A program made the position numbers and the translations under genes. A stretch of 64,000 nt of DNA, from contig JBAZQN010000010.1 in the NCBI GenBank assembly GCA_041645165.1, forward strand, positions 102 through 64,101, written 5' to 3'. Source of the stretch: Patescibacteria group bacterium (lineage in GTDB: Bacteria; Patescibacteriota; Patescibacteriia; 2-02-FULL-49-11). Under the pieces are notes generated by a model. It was given only the letters and a program-made list of their open reading frames with translations. It did not search any database and was not told the origin of the DNA. Shown piece after piece: positions 7,428 through 48,104 of this stretch (position 1 is its first letter; every line of letters starts with the position of its first letter).

Positions 7428-7531
7428 GTCATTCCTGATTTAATCAGGAATCCAGAAACAAAAATACGCAAAAACGTTCGTGGTGTCGGTTTTTATTTTC
7501 TTCTCTGGATTCCCGCTTTCGCGGGAATGAC
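7428..7531. mobile_element. ORF-less hairpin-bounded mini-element (GTCATTCC-hairpin-GGAATCCAGAAA ... TTCTCTGGATTCC-hairpin-GGGAATGAC)
   Basis: Same termini as the GIY-YIG-carrying elements at 15526-15897 and 19158-19612 and as the copy inside tsaC at 44401-44498. The left 25 bp recur at 56306-56330. Confidence 0.6.
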
Positions 7532-15525: not shown

Positions 15526-15897
15526 GTCATCCCGGGCTTGACCCGGGATCCAGAAATAACAATAACACTAAAAATCATCAGAAAGATCTTTCCATCCTGG
15601 ATTTACCTCCTCAATCAAACGCAATTTCCACGCCCGTTTCCACCGTTTCATTTGTTTTTCCCTCGTGATTGCCGCATAGATATCAGAAAATTCTTCATAG
15701 TACACCAGTGTATGTACGTGATATTGCCGGGTAAATCCTGGTACCGCTCCCACCTTATGCTCATCTACTCTGCGTCTAAGGTCGTTCGGTACTCCAACGT
15801 ACAAAGTTCCGTTTTTCTGACTCGCCATGATGTACACGTAATAACTCTGCATGATTTTTGTTTATTTTTTCTGGATTCCTGCCTGCGCAGGAATGAC
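15526..15897. mobile_element. Hairpin-bounded element carrying a GIY-YIG gene
   Basis: Left end GTCATCCCGGGCTTGACCCGGGATCCAGAAA. Right end TTTCTGGATTCCTGCCTGCGCAGGAATGAC. Same termini as the ORF-less copies at 7428-7531 and 44401-44498. Confidence 0.6.
15568..15852 (-). CDS. GIY-YIG nuclease family protein
   Basis: 94 aa, YVYIMASQKNGTLYVGVPNDLRRRVDEH. About 80% identical to the 19200-19484 paralog. Confidence 0.7.
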   Translation of the reverse strand: MQSYYVYIMASQKNGTLYVGVPNDLRRRVDEHKVGAVPGFTRQYHVHTLVYYEEFSDIYAAITREKQMKRWKRAWKLRLIEEVNPGWKDLSDDF

Positions 15898-15949
15898 AAT
15901 GACTGAAAATTGAACATTGAGAATTGAAAATTTCCACACTGTTCTGCTT

Positions 15950-43045: not shown

Positions 43046-43903
43046 TCATATTTCACCATATTTTGAACGAAAAAGCGCTATCCAATCGTCTATATCTAGC
43101 TCTCCCGGACGCCTCTCTATTAACGCAGATAAACGCGGATTAAGACGCGGATTAACGCAGATATCGTTATCGTGAGGTAACGATAACGTGGTATGAATCT
43201 TACGCCGGGGAAAACGGAATGCAGGTTTGATGAAGCTGAAAAACGTTTCACTCTTGATATTTCCTCGCCGCTCGGCCGCTTGAGCGTCGCGAAGATCAAT
43301 CCGCACCAATGCGCTCTCAACCGCCGGCTGGGGCCAAAACGCAGAACGAGGAATAATCCTTAAAATTTCAACCTTGCCATACCATTGCACAATCACCGAA
43401 AGGAGAGACATATGCGGCGGACGTGCGTAAATCCTCTCTGCAACTTCTTTCTGAATAATGAGCACCATACGCTTCGGCAGATGATCATCCCGCAAAATGT
43501 AAGAAAAAAAATCAGAAGTAATGGAATAGGGAAGGCTTGCGACGACCACGAAATCCGACCACTGATGAACTGATGAACTGATGAACTGAATCGCATCTCC
43601 CTCAACAATCTCAACATTCTTCATTGAGCGGCGCTTGCACTCTTCTCGCAAAAATTTCACTAACTTCGACTCAATCTCTATCGCAGTCACGCGTCCTGCC
43701 GCGCCCGCAAGCGCAAATGTCAGCGCGCCGAATCCAGGACCGATCTCGTACACTGCATCAGCTGGCGTAATGCCCGCCGCCGCCACGGCGTCTTTCACCA
43801 CGCTCTCGTCAATTAAAAAATTCTGGCCGCGGTCTTTTGTCGGCCTGATGCGGTATTGCTCGCACAAAGATTTTAATTCGGGAACAGAAAGGAGAGAAGA
43901 CAT
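43046..43903 (-). CDS. rsmA: 16S rRNA (adenine1518/1519-N6)-dimethyltransferase
   Basis: RGQNFLID. VYEIGPGFGALT. Contains an in-frame 9-bp x3.5 tandem repeat (CTGATGAAC) at 43556-43590. Confidence 0.8.
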   Translation of the reverse strand: MSSLLSVPELKSLCEQYRIRPTKDRGQNFLIDESVVKDAVAAAGITPADAVYEIGPGFGALTFALAGAAGRVTAIEIESKLVKFLREECKRRSMKNVEIVEGDAIQFISSSVHQWSDFVVVASLPYSITSDFFSYILRDDHLPKRMVLIIQKEVAERIYARPPHMSLLSVIVQWYGKVEILRIIPRSAFWPQPAVESALVRIDLRDAQAAERRGNIKSETFFSFIKPAFRFPRRKIHTTLSLPHDNDICVNPRLNPRLSALIERRPGELDIDDWIALFRSKYGEI

Positions 43904-44093: not shown

Positions 44094-44822
44094 TCATTGA
44101 ACATTTAGTCTGAGTGACCCTACTCGCAATACCCTCACTGAACCATCAGTATTTACTTGAACGACAGTTGAAGGCTTCCTCCTCAGCAGTGTTCCCCCAT
44201 CAATGACGAGGTCTGGTTTAAATTTTTTTCCGCTGAATGCGCGCACTGTCGCTGATGCGCTATAGAGCGCTTGCGTGCCGGAAACATTCGCGCTTGTGGC
44301 GATGAGGGGTTTGTCTAATCCACAAACGAGCTTGTGGGCGATTGGGTGCGGCGAGATGCGGAGGGAGAGTGTAGGGATAGATCTCGGTTCACTATTCACC
44401 GTCATCCCGGGCTTGACCCGGGATCCAGAAACAAAAACAAACAAACCCGCGCGATTTTTGTTTTTTCTTGTCTGGATTCCCGCCTGCGCGGGAATGACAG
44501 TTGTTTGAACGTATGAAGATGCGCGTTTCAACGGCAACACCAAAGATAACGGCCCCGGCCAATAGTGCCGTGCGAGCCGACGGGCAACAGGAGAAAATAC
44601 TACGTAACGCTCTGCCATTGACCTTGAAGCAACGATGACTGACAGCGGCTTTCCCTGCGGCCTTTGTTTGATGCGCCTTACTTTCATATGAACCTTCGGG
44701 TTCGTCCAATCACCGCCCAGACCATACGAAGTTTCGGTGGGAAAGGCCACCACGCCACCCTCACGGAGCACTCTTAATGCCACGCGAAGTAGTATCGGGT
44801 CATTAACTGAAATTACCTTCAT
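44094..44822 (-). CDS. tsaC: L-threonylcarbamoyladenylate synthase (TsaC/YrdC) interrupted in frame by a ~98-bp hairpin-bounded mini-element
   Basis: PTETSYGLG. HYWPGPLSLVLP. ATSANVSG. Inserted segment TTVIPAQAGIQTRKNKNRAGLFVFVSGSRVKPGMTV is encoded by the element at 44401-44498. Confidence 0.75.
   Translation of the reverse strand: MKVISVNDPILLRVALRVLREGGVVAFPTETSYGLGGDWTNPKVHMKVRRIKQRPQGKPLSVIVASRSMAERYVVFSPVARRLARHYWPGPLSLVLPLKRASSYVQTTVIPAQAGIQTRKNKNRAGLFVFVSGSRVKPGMTVNSEPRSIPTLSLRISPHPIAHKLVCGLDKPLIATSANVSGTQALYSASATVRAFSGKKFKPDLVIDGGTLLRRKPSTVVQVNTDGSVRVLRVGSLRLNVQ
44401..44498. mobile_element. ORF-less hairpin-bounded mini-element inserted in frame in tsaC
   Basis: GTCATCCCGGGCTTGACCCGGGATCCAGAAAC...TCTGGATTCCCGCCTGCGCGGGAATGAC. 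Confidence 0.65.
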
Positions 44823-44984: not shown

Positions 44985-47900
44985 TCAATCTTGTGTAACA
45001 AGATTGAGCAGTTTCCCTTTCACATACACCTTCCTCGCCACCTCTTTTCCTTTCAAATACTTCTGAATCTCGGGCAGTGCGTTTGCCGCCGCATATACCT
45101 CTTCTTCTCCCGCATCGCGGGACACTTCTGCCACTCCCCGCTTCTTCCCATCGATCTGTATGACCACCTGCACAGTCTCCTGTGTCATCAGCGCGAGATC
45201 AAAAGCCGGCCACGGCTCTTTGAAAATAGACCGTGCGTTGCCAAGCTGTTCCCATAACTCTTCCGTGATATGCGGCGCAAACGGCGCAAGAAGAATGAGG
45301 AGCGCCTTGTAGCCGGATAAAGTATCAGCGCGGTCTTCAAGGGCAGGTAATTCGTTCGTGTACGTCATGAGCTGTGCGATCGCAGTATTAAATTTAAACG
45401 CTTCAATATCTTCTGTAACTTTCTTAATCGTCTGATGCGCCAAACGCGCAAGCGCGTCGCTTTTAAACGCACTTACTACGCCCTTAAACGCCTGCGTATG
45501 AATGCGTGGTGAATGCGTATGAATGCGGGTCCCCAAGGACCATACGCGCTCCAAAAACCTCCTTATCCCTACGATGCTGCGCATGCTCCAAGGTTTTGCA
45601 TCTTCAAACGGGCCCATGAACATTTCATACAATCGCATAGTGTCTGCGCCGTAGATTTCGATGACTTCATCGGGATTGATGACATTGCCTCGCGATTTCG
45701 ACATCTTTTGCCCGTCCTCTCCCAAGATCAGCCCTTGATTTTTTAACGTAAGGAAAGGCTCGTCAAAATCAATAATCCCCAGCCAATGCAGCACCTTGGT
45801 AAAAAACCGCGCATACATCAGATGCATGACTGCATGCTCTGCCCCGCCGACATAGAGGTCTACCGGAAGCCACGCATGAATCTTCTCGCGGCTTGCAAAT
45901 TCTTTCGCATTGCGAGGATCCGTATAGCGGAAAAAATACCAGGAAGAGTCCACAAAAGTATCCATCGTATCGCACTCCCTCCGCACGTCTTCGCCATACG
46001 AACCGCACTTGGGGCATCTCACCTCATGGAATTTTTTTGACCGCTTAAGAGGCGACTCCCCCGTAGGCCGGAAATCAACATCATCAGGCAACCGCACCGG
46101 TAGATCTTTTTCCGGGACCGGCACCTCACCGCACTTCACACAATAGATAATGGGAATCGGCGCTCCCCAATAGCGCTGACGCGAGATGAGCCAATCACGC
46201 AGACGATAGGTAACCTGCTTCCTGCCAAACTTTTCTGCCATTTTTAAAAGAGCCTCTTCCGACGACAGTCCGGTAAACTCCCCCGACTCGACAAGCATCC
46301 CGTGTCCTATATAACATCCTACATCCATAACCTCCTTGAGTAATTCCGGAAATTCAAGGGTCCCCATATCTTTCATCGTGAAATGTCCCCGTCCTTTTAA
46401 TTCTCTCAGTTCAGCGTTTAATTCCTTCGCATACCACCGTGCACTTTCCTTGCGGTATTCTTCTTCATTGTCGGAAATAAAGATGATAATTTTTCTCACC
46501 TGATCCTTAATCTTTGGATTTATGTCAAAATCATATAACGGACCAAGACGCTGACGATTCTCGGTGATGGTTTTCCTACCAGGCGCCACCAAAAGGAGGG
46601 TATCAATTTTTGCATCCGTCTCTCCCAGCCACCGCACCGCAAATGCGCCGCCCGCGCTATGCCCTATCACTACTGAATTTTCATCTAAGGGAAGGTGTGC
46701 TACCTGCTTTTTCCATTCATCATATTGCGGCTCCCAAGCATTCGGCATGAGTGGATTAAATACCTTGAAACCTCGTTCTTCCAACTTCGGCGTTATCCAT
46801 CCCAACCAGTGATGGGTATTTTCTGGAATATAATCAGCTTTCCCGCGTGGATCAGATTTTGGAGATCCGTGTACCATAAGCACCTTTCTCTCTTTTGGCC
46901 GTATTACACACTTGATCGGCAAATTGAATTTTTTTGCAAACACATAATCCCGCTCGTCATGTGCCGGAACGGCCATAATTGCGCCCGTACCATAACCCAT
47001 GAGCACGTAATCAGCAATCCAAATTGGTATCTCTTCCTTAGTGGCGGGATTGATTGCGGTTATCCCTTGTAATTCAACACCAGTTTTTTCCTTCTGTAAC
47101 TGACCACGCTCCAGTTCAGTTTTGCTTTTAGCGCTCTGAATATATTGTTCAACAAATTTGAAATTTGAAATTTGAAATTTGAAATTTTCAATTATGGGGT
47201 GTTCCGGTGCGAGCACCATGTAAGTCGCCCCAAATAACGTATCCGGCCTCGTGGTGAATACTTCGATCCATAACTCCCCCTCTCCCCCTCTTACCTTAAG
47301 AGGGGGTTGGGGGGCGTTACTCACTATAGGAAATTTTATCAATGCTCCTTCACTTCTCCCAATCCAATTCTGCTGCATGAGTTTGATAGGTTCCGGCCAA
47401 TTAATCTTTTCAAGGCCTGAAAGCAGTCCTGCCGTGACTCGCTTGTTCCTTTTCGCGTCTTGTGTCCGATCCTCGATAAAATCAGTGATTTTGAAAAACC
47501 ACTGCGCAAGCTCTTTCTGCACTACCGTATGCTTGCAGCGTTCGCATTTCCCGTCCACCACTTGCTCGCGCGCGAGCACGGTTTGGCAGTGTGCACACCA
47601 ATTCACCGGGGCTAATCTCTTATAGGCCAAGCCGTGTTGGTAGAGCAAGAGGAAAAACCATTGCGTCCAGCGGTAATAATCAGGATCTGCGGTATTCACT
47701 TCCCGCGACCAATCATAGGAAAACCCCAGCGACTTGATCTGGCGCCGAAAATTTTCAATGCTCTTCGCAGTGGTCTCCGCGGGATGCACACCCACTTTGA
47801 TCGCGTAATTCTCCGCAGGAAGCCCGAACGCGTCCCATCCCATCGGATGAAGCGCCATAGAGCCCCGCATGCGCAAATAGCGGCTCACGATATCGGTGGC

Positions 47901-48104
47901 AGTATAGCCTTCGGGGTGCCCTACATGGAGCCCTTGCGAGGAAGGATAGGGAAACATGTCGAGCACATAGCGGCGATCTTCGCGCTTTCTCCCCTCATCA
48001 TCAGCGCGAAACGCGCCCTGCGCTTCCCAGCGCTCCTGCCATTTCTGCTCAATTTTTTTATGGTCGTAGGAGTGAGACATAACAGTACATAATCCAAAAA
48101 CCAA
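44985..48104 (-). CDS. leuS: Leucyl-tRNA synthetase with an in-frame ~200-aa alpha/beta-hydrolase domain insertion and two small repeat inserts
   Basis: HPEGY-type HIGH region and KMSKS. Insert ...VHGSPKSD...VVIGHSAGGAFAVRWL...LLLVAPG lies between the editing domain and YRLRDWLISRQRYWG. G/C-tract insert at 47275-47316. AAATTTC x4 at 47155-47185. Confidence 0.85.
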   Translation of the reverse strand: MVFGLCTVMSHSYDHKKIEQKWQERWEAQGAFRADDEGRKREDRRYVLDMFPYPSSQGLHVGHPEGYTATDIVSRYLRMRGSMALHPMGWDAFGLPAENYAIKVGVHPAETTAKSIENFRRQIKSLGFSYDWSREVNTADPDYYRWTQWFFLLLYQHGLAYKRLAPVNWCAHCQTVLAREQVVDGKCERCKHTVVQKELAQWFFKITDFIEDRTQDAKRNKRVTAGLLSGLEKINWPEPIKLMQQNWIGRSEGALIKFPIVSNAPQPPLKVRGGEGELWIEVFTTRPDTLFGATYMVLAPEHPIIENFKFQISNFKFVEQYIQSAKSKTELERGQLQKEKTGVELQGITAINPATKEEIPIWIADYVLMGYGTGAIMAVPAHDERDYVFAKKFNLPIKCVIRPKERKVLMVHGSPKSDPRGKADYIPENTHHWLGWITPKLEERGFKVFNPLMPNAWEPQYDEWKKQVAHLPLDENSVVIGHSAGGAFAVRWLGETDAKIDTLLLVAPGRKTITENRQRLGPLYDFDINPKIKDQVRKIIIFISDNEEEYRKESARWYAKELNAELRELKGRGHFTMKDMGTLEFPELLKEVMDVGCYIGHGMLVESGEFTGLSSEEALLKMAEKFGRKQVTYRLRDWLISRQRYWGAPIPIIYCVKCGEVPVPEKDLPVRLPDDVDFRPTGESPLKRSKKFHEVRCPKCGSYGEDVRRECDTMDTFVDSSWYFFRYTDPRNAKEFASREKIHAWLPVDLYVGGAEHAVMHLMYARFFTKVLHWLGIIDFDEPFLTLKNQGLILGEDGQKMSKSRGNVINPDEVIEIYGADTMRLYEMFMGPFEDAKPWSMRSIVGIRRFLERVWSLGTRIHTHSPRIHTQAFKGVVSAFKSDALARLAHQTIKKVTEDIEAFKFNTAIAQLMTYTNELPALEDRADTLSGYKALLILLAPFAPHITEELWEQLGNARSIFKEPWPAFDLALMTQETVQVVIQIDGKKRGVAEVSRDAGEEEVYAAANALPEIQKYLKGKEVARKVYVKGKLLNLVTQD

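What the first reader, a model, noticed from the sequence alone, without database searches (positions are those of the whole stretch)
46380..47000. LeuS contains an in-frame ~200-aa alpha/beta-hydrolase domain
Between the editing-domain end (..KFNLPIKCVIRPKE) and the conserved ..GHGMLVESGEFTGLS..YRLRDWLISRQRYWG block there is a complete serine-hydrolase-like fold. It has VHGSPKSD, the nucleophile-elbow GHSAGG and LLLVAPG. The ORF is 1039 aa, against the 800-870 I would expect for bacterial LeuS.
Basis: partly seen in the sequence, partly recalled or inferred. Interest (0 to 1): 0.65.

Follow-up and report, generated by a model that had tools for sequence, protein, structure and literature searches.

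The report
Serine hydrolase nested inside leucyl-tRNA synthetase
The leucyl-tRNA synthetase of this ultra-small (Patescibacteria) bacterium carries a complete, apparently active serine hydrolase inside its proofreading domain, and comparison shows that this hydrolase family is repeatedly built into, or encoded right next to, the same synthetase in many such organisms, which points to an undescribed partner enzyme of tRNA charging.

Summary
The leuS ORF (window 44985-48080, minus strand, 1031 aa from the ATG) contains a 190-aa RBBP9/YdeN-type alpha/beta serine hydrolase (window 46320-46889; Pfam PF06821, E 1e-14; AF2 pLDDT 95; TM 0.80-0.84 to RBBP9 and YdeN). It interrupts a loop inside the CP1 editing domain, not the region after it. 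It is not an intein or a canonical LeuRS module. All LeuRS motifs are intact. The insert equals a whole free-standing gene minus its start and stop codons. It is not a one-off. In related Patescibacteria LeuS, this hydrolase sits at five different loops with its Ser/His/acid triad conserved. Other LeuS carry NUDIX, Ham1, nucleotidyltransferase or IS200-like domains at the same loops. Two leuS alleles 97-100% identical in DNA carry hydrolases only 33% identical, so cassettes are swapped by recombination. Free-standing homologues abut leuS on the same strand in 10 of 37 well-flanked metagenome loci. The best reading is a catalytically active aminoacyl-type hydrolase functionally partnered with LeuRS; its substrate is unknown. 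The main rival is a passenger in a permissive loop. I found no paper describing it.

The parts
44985..48080 (-). leuS gene, 1031 aa plus stop (an alternative TTG start at 48104 would give 1039 aa)
   Evidence: ORF list. TIGR00396 leuS_bact 988 bits. Thermus LeuRS 1h3n E 8e-227. Identical public gene call P0071.
46890..48080 (-). LeuS N-terminal part (aa 1-397): HIGH motif HVGH at 47916-47927, ZN1 cysteines at 47535-47597, first three quarters of the CP1 editing domain with the T-rich TTRPDT at 47238-47255 and the editing Asp375 at 46956-46958
   Evidence: Motif coordinates. Pfam PF13603 profile 1-146. These motifs are kept in all 120 related LeuS.
46320..46889 (-). Nested RBBP9/YdeN-type alpha/beta serine hydrolase cassette (aa 398-587, RKVLMVHG...LLKEVMDV). 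It corresponds to a whole free-standing 187-192-aa gene without its start and stop codons.
   Evidence: Pfam PF06821. Alignment A3 to free-standing homologues covers residue 2 to the C-terminus. AF2 pLDDT 95. Foldseek hits RBBP9 and YdeN. Empty-site orthologue P0074.
46647..46664 (-). Nucleophile elbow GHSAGG; the Ser475 codon is at 46656-46658
   Evidence: Ser is invariant in 56/56 LeuS-embedded, 12 of 13 other-host-embedded (the remaining one is an alignment gap) and 170/170 free copies.
46464..46466 (-). Probable triad acid Glu539 (the first Glu of the EEE run in SDNEEE). It aligns with RBBP9 Asp138. Asp537 (46470-46472) is an alternative.
   Evidence: RBBP9 alignment. This column is Asp or Glu in 53/56 LeuS-embedded copies. 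It sits just after strand 131-139 of the model.
46383..46385 (-). Triad His566 (GRGHF)
   Evidence: His in 49/49 aligned LeuS-embedded copies. Invariant in A3.
46866..46871 (-). His-Gly (HG) motif after strand beta-1, the usual oxyanion-hole element of alpha/beta hydrolases
   Evidence: H7 is nearly invariant and G8 invariant in A3. The oxyanion-hole role is inferred from family knowledge.
44988..46319 (-). LeuS C-terminal part (aa 588-1031): the last quarter of CP1 (GHGMLVESGEF...), the rest of the catalytic core with KMSKS at 45693-45707, the anticodon-binding domain and the C-terminal domain. There is no leucine-specific domain.
   Evidence: The Thermus alignment skips Tth 582-636.
47274..47315 (-). 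Short in-frame REP-like palindromic insertion (APQPPLKVRGGEGE) at the second hot-spot loop of CP1 ('site A'), where relatives carry hydrolase, Ham1 or IS200-like domains
   Evidence: The DNA is CCCCCTCTTAAGGTAAGAGGGGG and matches itself on the opposite strand. It is absent from orthologues. pLDDT is below 50 at aa 264-267.

Best explanation
The gene encodes a working bacterial-type leucyl-tRNA synthetase. A complete RBBP9/YdeN-type Ser-His-Glu/Asp hydrolase is nested in a surface loop of its CP1 editing domain. The module began as a free-standing ~190-aa gene that was captured whole. Cassettes of this kind move between leuS alleles by homologous recombination through the conserved flanks. The hydrolase is most likely still catalytically active and is a functional partner of LeuRS rather than a random passenger. 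By analogy with RBBP9, the family's best-characterised member found here, which forms an acyl-enzyme with an alpha-amino acid and needs a free alpha-amine, it probably hydrolyses an alpha-aminoacyl-X bond linked to leucylation. I rank the candidate substrates as follows: (1) aminoacyl-tRNA or aminoacyl-adenylate, meaning an accessory deacylase acting in cis, with the free-standing neighbours acting in trans; (2) leucyl or hydrophobic peptides or esters, supplying amino acid; (3) aminoacyl-adenylate-mimic inhibitors. Shown here: the fold, the intact triad, the nesting inside CP1, intact LeuRS motifs, recurrence at five loops, cassette swapping, and genomic linkage of free copies to leuS. Inferred: catalytic activity, functional coupling, and the substrate.
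For: Fold and family.

Whole-gene cassette: free-standing homologues up to 56% identical align from residue 2 to the last residue.

LeuRS is intact: HIGH, KMSKS, TTRxDT and xHDxRD are present in all 120 relatives, and CP1 is contiguous once the insert is removed.

Purifying selection on the module: Ser 56/56, acid 53/56 and His 49/49 in LeuS-embedded copies. Vertically inherited inserts diverge about as slowly as the LeuS core, for example P0081 versus P0085 with core 82% and insert 84% identical.

Recurrence: the hydrolase is nested at five distinct LeuS loops in many Patescibacteria lineages, and once in ValS.

Linkage of free copies: LeuS-Hyd with a 1-nt gap (L016) and Hyd-LeuS with a 5-nt gap (L012). 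In 80 metagenome loci, 22 copies are embedded in LeuS and 10 free copies abut leuS on the same strand, against 27 well-flanked free copies without leuS nearby. Two other contexts put the hydrolase in tight clusters with class II aaRS genes.

Chemistry: RBBP9 is an aminopeptidase that requires a free alpha-amine (PMC8866121).

Mobility: the leuS DNA of L003 and L004 is 97-100% identical in the flanks and about 45% across the cassette, and the inserts are 33% identical.
Against: The same hydrolase domain is also nested in UvrB, EngA/Der, a GT2 glycosyltransferase and YdjC. Unrelated cassettes (an IS200-like Y1 transposase, an aminoglycoside-nucleotidyltransferase-like domain, REP/MITE-like DNA) occupy the same LeuS loops, so these loops are simply permissive. 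The canonical CP1 editing site is intact everywhere, so no missing function calls for a replacement. Most well-flanked free copies (27 of 37) are not next to leuS. From the parallel-sheet topology, the triad sits on the face opposite the N- and C-terminal attachment point, so the active site probably points away from CP1; this is an inference, because no coordinates were available. No prokaryotic member has a known physiological substrate; ML-005, reported as YdeN-related, is a short-chain esterase. The metagenome loci are not phylogenetically independent.
Confidence: 0.5

Rival explanations
1. Autonomous passenger. The CP1 loops of Patescibacteria LeuS tolerate insertions, and a housekeeping esterase or aminopeptidase gene has lodged there. 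It keeps its own unrelated job and gains only co-expression with an essential gene. Conserved leuS flanks then let the cassette spread by recombination, as happens for inteins, without any link to leucylation.
For: The same domain is nested in UvrB, EngA, GT2 and YdjC. Unrelated domains and REP/MITE-like DNA sit in the same loops. Presence and absence are patchy among close LeuS relatives, for example P0074 (empty) versus the query, and P0163 (which carries only a short ~50-aa non-hydrolase insert at site B) versus P0072 and P0083. Cassettes are replaced by recombination. The insert's GC3 of 0.43 is below every 579-nt window in the rest of leuS (0.446-0.648; the rest as a whole is 0.555), which suggests foreign origin. 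The LeuRS editing site is intact.
Against: This does not explain why free-standing copies sit directly beside leuS on the same strand in about a quarter of well-flanked loci, sometimes with gaps of 1-5 nt, both upstream and downstream. It does not explain why 18 of about 22 internally nested copies among the top 150 representatives are in LeuS or ValS. Some leuS loci hold several hydrolase paralogues, embedded and adjacent together (L025, L046).
Confidence: 0.3
2. Resistance or detoxification module. The hydrolase, like the NUDIX, Ham1 and aminoglycoside-nucleotidyltransferase-like cassettes in relatives, destroys aminoacyl-adenylate-mimic antibiotics that target LeuRS. This would resemble the way the serine peptidase MccF cleaves processed microcin C.
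For: Rapid cassette turnover, allelic replacement and paralogue clusters at leuS look like an arms race. The co-occurring cassettes are all small-molecule or nucleotide-processing enzyme families. NCBIfam already lists an IleRS with an N-acetyltransferase domain (NF040702). The comparison with MccE and MccF rests on my own knowledge and was not tested.
Against: There were no hits in defence or phage libraries. There is no homology to MccF. No LeuRS-directed inhibitor is known in these habitats. Ham1 and IS200-like cassettes do not fit easily.
Confidence: 0.1
3. An intein, intron-like element, frameshifted or misassembled chimera, or a canonical LeuRS module that has been misread.
For: The insert lies in a conserved essential gene and is absent from the nearest orthologue.
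Against: No Hint, intein or homing-endonuclease family was found. The boundary residues are wrong for an intein: Arg at the start and Asp-Val before Gly-Cys at the end. No significant flanking repeats were found. The reading frame is continuous, and the same sequence appears in two assemblies. Dozens of independent genomes show the same architecture. Thermus and E. coli LeuRS have only a short loop at this position.
Confidence: 0.02

Closest known systems
Human RBBP9 (PDB 2qs9, 7oex), Pfam PF06821 Ser_hydrolase
   Same: Minimal lid-less alpha/beta hydrolase of about 190 aa, with a GHSxG nucleophile, a His, and an acid in the same positions. Foldseek TM 0.80 and 24-25% identity.
   Different: RBBP9 is a free-standing eukaryotic protein and an aromatic aminopeptidase. 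The residue that holds the alpha-amine (Glu108) aligns to Gln in the insert, in a loosely aligned loop, so specificity cannot be transferred. The window copy is nested inside an aaRS.
Bacillus subtilis YdeN (PDB 1uxo) and the metaproteomic esterase ML-005
   Same: Best structural match (TM 0.84). Same Pfam family. ML-005 is reported as a YdeN-related short-chain esterase (PMC6119806).
   Different: Both are stand-alone proteins with no known link to tRNA synthetases. The physiological substrate of YdeN is unknown.
ProRS INS editing domain and its free-standing relatives YbaK and ProXp (own knowledge)
   Same: The evolutionary pattern matches: a hydrolytic module is either inserted into the body of an aaRS or encoded as a separate trans-acting protein.
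   Different: The fold and chemistry are unrelated, with no Ser-His-acid triad. INS sits at one fixed site, whereas here there are five sites and cassette swapping. An editing role is proven for INS and only hypothesised here.
IleRS with an N-acetyltransferase domain (NCBIfam NF040702 ileS_w_GNAT)
   Same: A class Ia aaRS that carries an extra small-molecule-modifying enzyme domain, recognised by curators as an exception model.
   Different: The added domain and the host aaRS both differ. The query scores only 85.9 bits against a cutoff of 1999.
Inteins in conserved sites of essential genes
   Same: Whole-domain insertion in a conserved essential gene, patchy distribution, and spread between alleles through flanking homology.
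   Different: There are no splicing motifs, no Hint fold and no homing endonuclease. The insert is a metabolic-type enzyme that stays in the mature protein.

Membership tests
Bacterial-type leucyl-tRNA synthetase (TIGR00396) | Whole-protein score above the curated cutoff | tested here: met
   988.3 bits against a cutoff of 548.4. Thermus LeuRS E 8e-227.
Bacterial-type leucyl-tRNA synthetase (TIGR00396) | Class I signature motifs HIGH and KMSKS | tested here: met
   HVGH at aa 52-55 and KMSKS at aa 792-796. Conserved in relatives.
Bacterial-type leucyl-tRNA synthetase (TIGR00396) | CP1 editing domain with the T-rich region and the conserved Asp | tested here: met
   TTRPDT at aa 276-281 and AHDERD with D375. 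PF13603 E 1e-57, contiguous after in-silico deletion of the insert.
Bacterial-type leucyl-tRNA synthetase (TIGR00396) | Leucine-specific domain before KMSKS (present in Thermus and E. coli; not universal) | tested here: not met
   The alignment skips Thermus residues 582-636. Insert-free Patescibacteria orthologues of 805-860 aa also appear to lack it, so this looks like a lineage trait; that is inferred from their lengths and was not tested directly.
Bacterial-type leucyl-tRNA synthetase (TIGR00396) | Leucylation and editing activity | not testable with these tools
   Needs enzymology.
Ser_hydrolase PF06821 (RBBP9/YdeN) | Pfam gathering score | tested here: met
   54.9 bits against 22 for the insert alone, and 50.2 bits in the whole protein.
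Ser_hydrolase PF06821 (RBBP9/YdeN) | Minimal alpha/beta-hydrolase fold superposable on solved members | tested here: met
   AF2 pLDDT 95.1. TM 0.80-0.84 and rmsd 2.3-2.6 A to 7oex, 2qs9 and 1uxo.
Ser_hydrolase PF06821 (RBBP9/YdeN) | GxSxG nucleophile, catalytic His and acid | tested here: met
   GHSAGG (S475), H566, and E539 (or D537), all at the C-terminal ends of strands. The columns are conserved across 239 copies.
Ser_hydrolase PF06821 (RBBP9/YdeN) | Hydrolase activity and substrate | not testable with these tools
   Only RBBP9 (aminopeptidase) and ML-005 (esterase) are characterised.
Intein | Hint fold; N-terminal Cys/Ser/Thr; C-terminal His-Asn followed by Cys/Ser/Thr | tested here: not met
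   No intein or Hint Pfam hit at E<0.1. The insert starts with Arg-Lys and ends with Met-Asp-Val before Gly-Cys. The whole insert is accounted for by the hydrolase fold.
Known aaRS editing-domain families (CP1, INS/YbaK, AlaX, ThrRS-N2, DTD) | Homology of the inserted block to one of these folds | tested here: not met
   The insert hits only alpha/beta-hydrolase families in Pfam, NCBIfam and PDB. If it edits, it would be a new kind of editing module.

The most novel reading that the evidence does not exclude
RBBP9/YdeN-type serine hydrolases are a previously unrecognised class of accessory proofreading or protective modules for class Ia aminoacyl-tRNA synthetases in Patescibacteria and DPANN archaea. 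They act in cis when nested in LeuRS or ValS, and in trans when encoded beside leuS. They are exchanged between leuS alleles as recombining cassettes, together with NUDIX and Ham1 modules.
Probability: 0.3. Interest if true: 0.85.

Novelty: new variant of a known kind. Interest (0 to 1): 0.7.

Why it matters
All known aminoacyl-tRNA proofreading modules belong to a handful of folds, and none is an alpha/beta serine hydrolase. This family turns up nested at five loops of LeuRS, nested in ValS, and encoded immediately beside leuS, across the two large radiations of ultra-small symbiotic prokaryotes. That pattern is the classic Rosetta-stone signature of a functional partnership, and it can be tested directly with one recombinant protein and a Ser-to-Ala mutant. 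The locus is also a clear natural case of whole-enzyme cassettes being inserted, swapped and lost inside an essential gene without inteins or introns. That bears on how domain insertions arise, and on why automatic annotation demotes these proteins to 'class I tRNA ligase family protein'.

Tried and rejected
- Alignment A1, which mixed full-length LeuS with 190-aa free hydrolases, smeared the short sequences along the whole protein. I discarded it and used A2 and A3 instead.
- The search for homologous proteins with the insert alone returned only short free-standing proteins and missed even the query's own LeuS. That list is therefore not a census of embedded copies; these came.
- The search for related loci with A3 failed because it had no conserved stretch. 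The genome-contig scan gave only one free-standing locus.
- The afdb50 fold library was unavailable.
- Model coordinates are not exposed. I therefore could not measure the distance or orientation between the hydrolase triad, the CP1 pocket and the tRNA path.
- There are no meaningful direct or inverted repeats at the cassette junctions, so there is no sign of a transposon-type mechanism.
- PADLOC and PHROGs gave no hits.
- The window holds no second hydrolase copy.
- Six literature searches found no description of a hydrolase, NUDIX or Ham1 domain inside LeuRS. The library covers only open-access papers and bioRxiv.
- The trees are neighbour-joining only, so the number of independent insertions beyond five is suggestive rather than established.
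Full report
**The observation**

The minus-strand ORF 44985..48104 is a bacterial-type leucyl-tRNA synthetase. It scores 988 bits on TIGR00396 against a cutoff of 548 and E 8e-227 against Thermus thermophilus LeuRS. The ATG at 48080 is the likely start, giving 1031 aa. This is the public gene call, P0071 (NCBI name 'MAG: class I tRNA ligase family protein [Patescibacteria group bacterium]'), and the Thermus alignment begins at residue 3-4.

Residues 398-587 (window about 46320-46889) match Pfam Ser_hydrolase PF06821 at E 1.3e-14 and 54.9 bits, against a cutoff of 22. They also match the solved structures YdeN (5.6e-8) and RBBP9 (1e-7). An AF2 model of the insert has pLDDT 95.1. It superposes on RBBP9 and YdeN with TM 0.80-0.84. 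In the full-length model (pLDDT 89, pTM 0.82) the domain also folds confidently. The LeuS region is identical in a second public assembly.

**Anatomy**

The Thermus alignment jumps from residue 365 to 376 across the insert. Pfam's LeuRS editing-domain profile is cut at position 146 of 185. When aa 398-587 are deleted in silico, that profile matches contiguously (1-183/185) and the protein becomes 841 aa. The hydrolase therefore sits in a loop inside CP1, not after it.

The closest orthologue by LeuS core is P0074 (70% identical, 817 aa, same leuS-sua5 synteny). It has a 9-residue loop at this point.

Aligned with free-standing homologues of 187-192 aa (up to 56% identical, from DPANN archaea and Patescibacteria), the insert runs from their residue 2 to their last residue. 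It is a whole gene without its start and stop codons, joined by linkers of only 3-5 residues.

The catalytic elements are Ser475 in GHSAGG, His566 in GRGHF, and an acid at Glu539. Glu539 aligns with RBBP9 Asp138, and Asp537 is an alternative. All lie at the C-terminal ends of strands in the model.

The LeuRS parts are intact: HVGH, KMSKS, the ZN1 cysteines, TTRPDT and AHDERD. The leucine-specific domain is absent.

**What it is not**

No intein, Hint or endonuclease family was detected. The junction residues are wrong for an intein. There are no significant flanking repeats. The block does not align with any canonical LeuRS segment. Defence and phage libraries gave nothing.

**It is recurrent**

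I examined the 120 best LeuS relatives, all from Patescibacteria.

- 60 have no large insert and are about 800-860 aa.
- The rest carry whole domains at recurrent loops. In query numbering these are site D (about aa 205), site A (about aa 254, just before TTRPDT), site B (about aa 396, the query's site), site C (about aa 652) and site E (about aa 850).
- The PF06821 hydrolase occurs at all five sites, sometimes twice in one protein (P0073; L028, L088, L091).
- Other cassettes, confirmed by Pfam, are NUDIX at site B, Ham1 at site A, an aminoglycoside-2''-adenylyltransferase-like nucleotidyltransferase at site B, and an IS200-like Y1 transposase domain at site A.
- The query itself has a 14-aa in-frame REP-like palindrome at site A.

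The unbiased search with the insert alone (1395 hits at E<=1e-3) showed that 17 of the 27 longer proteins (280 aa or more) among the top 150 representatives are LeuS or LeuS fragments. One is ValS. The domain is also nested in UvrB, EngA/Der, a GT2 glycosyltransferase and YdjC, and is fused end to end with NUDIX or Ham1.

In LeuS-embedded copies the triad is conserved: Ser 56/56, acid 53/56, and His 49/49 where aligned. Where inheritance looks vertical, the insert diverges about as slowly as the core (P0081 versus P0085: 82% core, 84% insert).

**It is mobile**

On a neighbour-joining tree of the LeuS core, insert states are patchy, and sister sequences often differ. On the hydrolase tree, the query's cassette groups with a LeuS fragment (P0191) and with free-standing proteins, not with the older LeuS-resident clades.

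The decisive case is P0072 versus P0083. Their LeuS cores are 96% identical, but their site-B hydrolases are only 33% identical. Their loci are syntenic with the window. At the DNA level the two leuS genes are 97-100% identical on both sides and about 45% identical across the cassette plus about 20 upstream codons. That is allelic replacement by homologous recombination.

The query cassette has GC3 of 0.43, against 0.555 for the rest of leuS. This is lower than any other window of equal length in the gene and is compatible with foreign origin.

**Link to LeuS**

- P0340 is a free-standing hydrolase, 58% identical to a site-A resident. It lies in the cluster MetS-TatD-Hyd-LeuS-Sua5, with 5 nt between the hydrolase and leuS.
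- P0003, 48% identical to the query insert, lies 1 nt downstream of an insert-free LeuS.
- P0353 lies in a cluster of overlapping or abutting genes with an acylphosphatase and a class II aaRS.
- P0047 follows a class II aaRS and a 2H phosphoesterase.
- Three other contexts show no aaRS nearby.

A larger sample of 80 metagenome loci held 86 hydrolase copies. Of these, 22 are embedded in LeuS ORFs. Ten are free-standing and abut leuS on the same strand: in 3 cases leuS lies downstream of the hydrolase with gaps of 3-64 nt, and in 7 cases upstream with gaps of 96-646 nt. The other 54 have no leuS in the available flank, and only 27 of those have at least 1 kb on both sides. So about a quarter of well-flanked free copies touch leuS, where well under 1% would be expected by chance. 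That expectation is my estimate for a genome of about 800 genes, and the loci are not phylogenetically independent. Some loci combine an embedded copy with one or two adjacent free copies (L025, L046).

**Mechanism**

The results show a real nested domain with an intact triad under purifying selection, an intact host enzyme, recurrent and recombining cassettes, and genomic linkage to leuS.

From these I infer that the domain is active and functionally tied to LeuRS. RBBP9 forms an acyl-enzyme with an alpha-amino acid and requires a free alpha-amine (PMC8866121). The most economical chemistry is therefore hydrolysis of an alpha-aminoacyl-X bond. My ranking is an accessory deacylase of aminoacyl-tRNA or aminoacyl-adenylate first, then release of leucine from peptides or esters, then detoxification of adenylate mimics.

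Several points count against tight coupling.

- The domain also occurs in unrelated hosts.
- The loops are permissive to unrelated inserts.
- CP1 is intact everywhere.
- By parallel-sheet topology, the active site should face away from the attachment point.

The main rival is therefore an autonomous passenger that spreads through the conserved leuS flanks.

**Comparison with known systems and novelty**

The fold is a clear member of PF06821. The host is a clear LeuRS. The combination resembles the ProRS INS/YbaK pattern of cis and trans hydrolytic modules, and the curated IleRS-with-GNAT exception (NF040702). It uses a fold not known in aaRS biology.

Six literature searches found no description of it. 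The architecture is visible in precomputed Pfam annotations of public proteins, so it is unreported rather than unseen. I rate it a new variant of a known kind, with a substantial chance of marking a new class of aaRS accessory module.

Noticed in passing
window 44394-44504 (minus strand, inside the Sua5/YrdC-like ORF 44094-44822): The Sua5 gene carries an in-frame MITE-like element, translated as ...VIPAQAGIQTRKNKNRAGLFVFVSGSRVKPGMTV..., with terminal inverted repeats. Partial copies lie at window 15526-15556, 7496-7531 and 15853-15898. Orthologous Sua5 proteins in L003-L005 are 200-206 aa, against 242 aa here.
   Followed up: partly
window 47274-47315 (minus strand, LeuS aa 256-269): A palindromic REP-like sequence (CCCCCTCTTAAGGTAAGAGGGGG) is inserted in frame at LeuS 'site A', the loop where relatives carry hydrolase, Ham1 or IS200-like domains. 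It is absent from orthologues, and the AF2 model has low confidence there.
   Followed up: partly
related proteins P0089, P0098, P0108, P0093, P0123, P0141, P0152, P0124, P0143 (no window coordinates): Related Patescibacteria LeuS carry NUDIX, Ham1, aminoglycoside-nucleotidyltransferase-like and IS200-like Y1 transposase domains nested at the same two CP1 loops. Hydrolase plus NUDIX often occur in one protein of up to about 1200 aa.
   Followed up: partly
proteins P0205, P0221, P0202, P0247, P0196: The same PF06821 hydrolase domain is nested inside UvrB, the double GTPase EngA/Der, a GT2 glycosyltransferase, YdjC and ValS. It is also fused end to end with NUDIX (P0227, P0229) or Ham1 (P0272).
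   Followed up: partly
L003 versus L004, leuS positions about 1000-1720 of the gene alignment: Two leuS alleles that are nearly identical in DNA differ by a wholesale replacement of the nested hydrolase plus about 20 upstream codons. This is a clean natural example of cassette exchange inside an essential gene.
   Followed up: yes
L016 (NCBI GCA_964469785.1): A contig with an archaeal-type tRNA-intron endonuclease gene encodes a bacterial-type LeuS (Pfam PF13603 editing domain), followed 1 nt later by the free-standing hydrolase. This hints that leuS and the hydrolase travel together between Patescibacteria and DPANN archaea.
   Followed up: no
window about 45500-45560 (LeuS aa about 850-870) and aa 202-216: The LeuS has a short tandem duplication (RIHTHSPRIHTQ) in a low-confidence loop of the anticodon-binding domain. 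In relatives this loop ('site E') holds a MITE-like insert (P0080) or a hydrolase (P0298). There is also a 14-aa basic insertion (RTQDAKRNKRVTAG) at 'site D', shared with P0090.
   Followed up: no
window 43046-43903 versus L001 5942-6791: The KsgA/RsmA gene downstream of sua5 is one 285-aa ORF in the window but is split into two gene calls in the other public assembly of the same contig. The two sequences diverge by an indel from L001 position 6276.
   Followed up: partly
window 44985-48080: This LeuS, and apparently the insert-free Patescibacteria orthologues of about 805-860 aa, lack the leucine-specific domain found before KMSKS in Thermus and E. coli LeuRS. For the orthologues this is inferred from length only.
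   Followed up: partly
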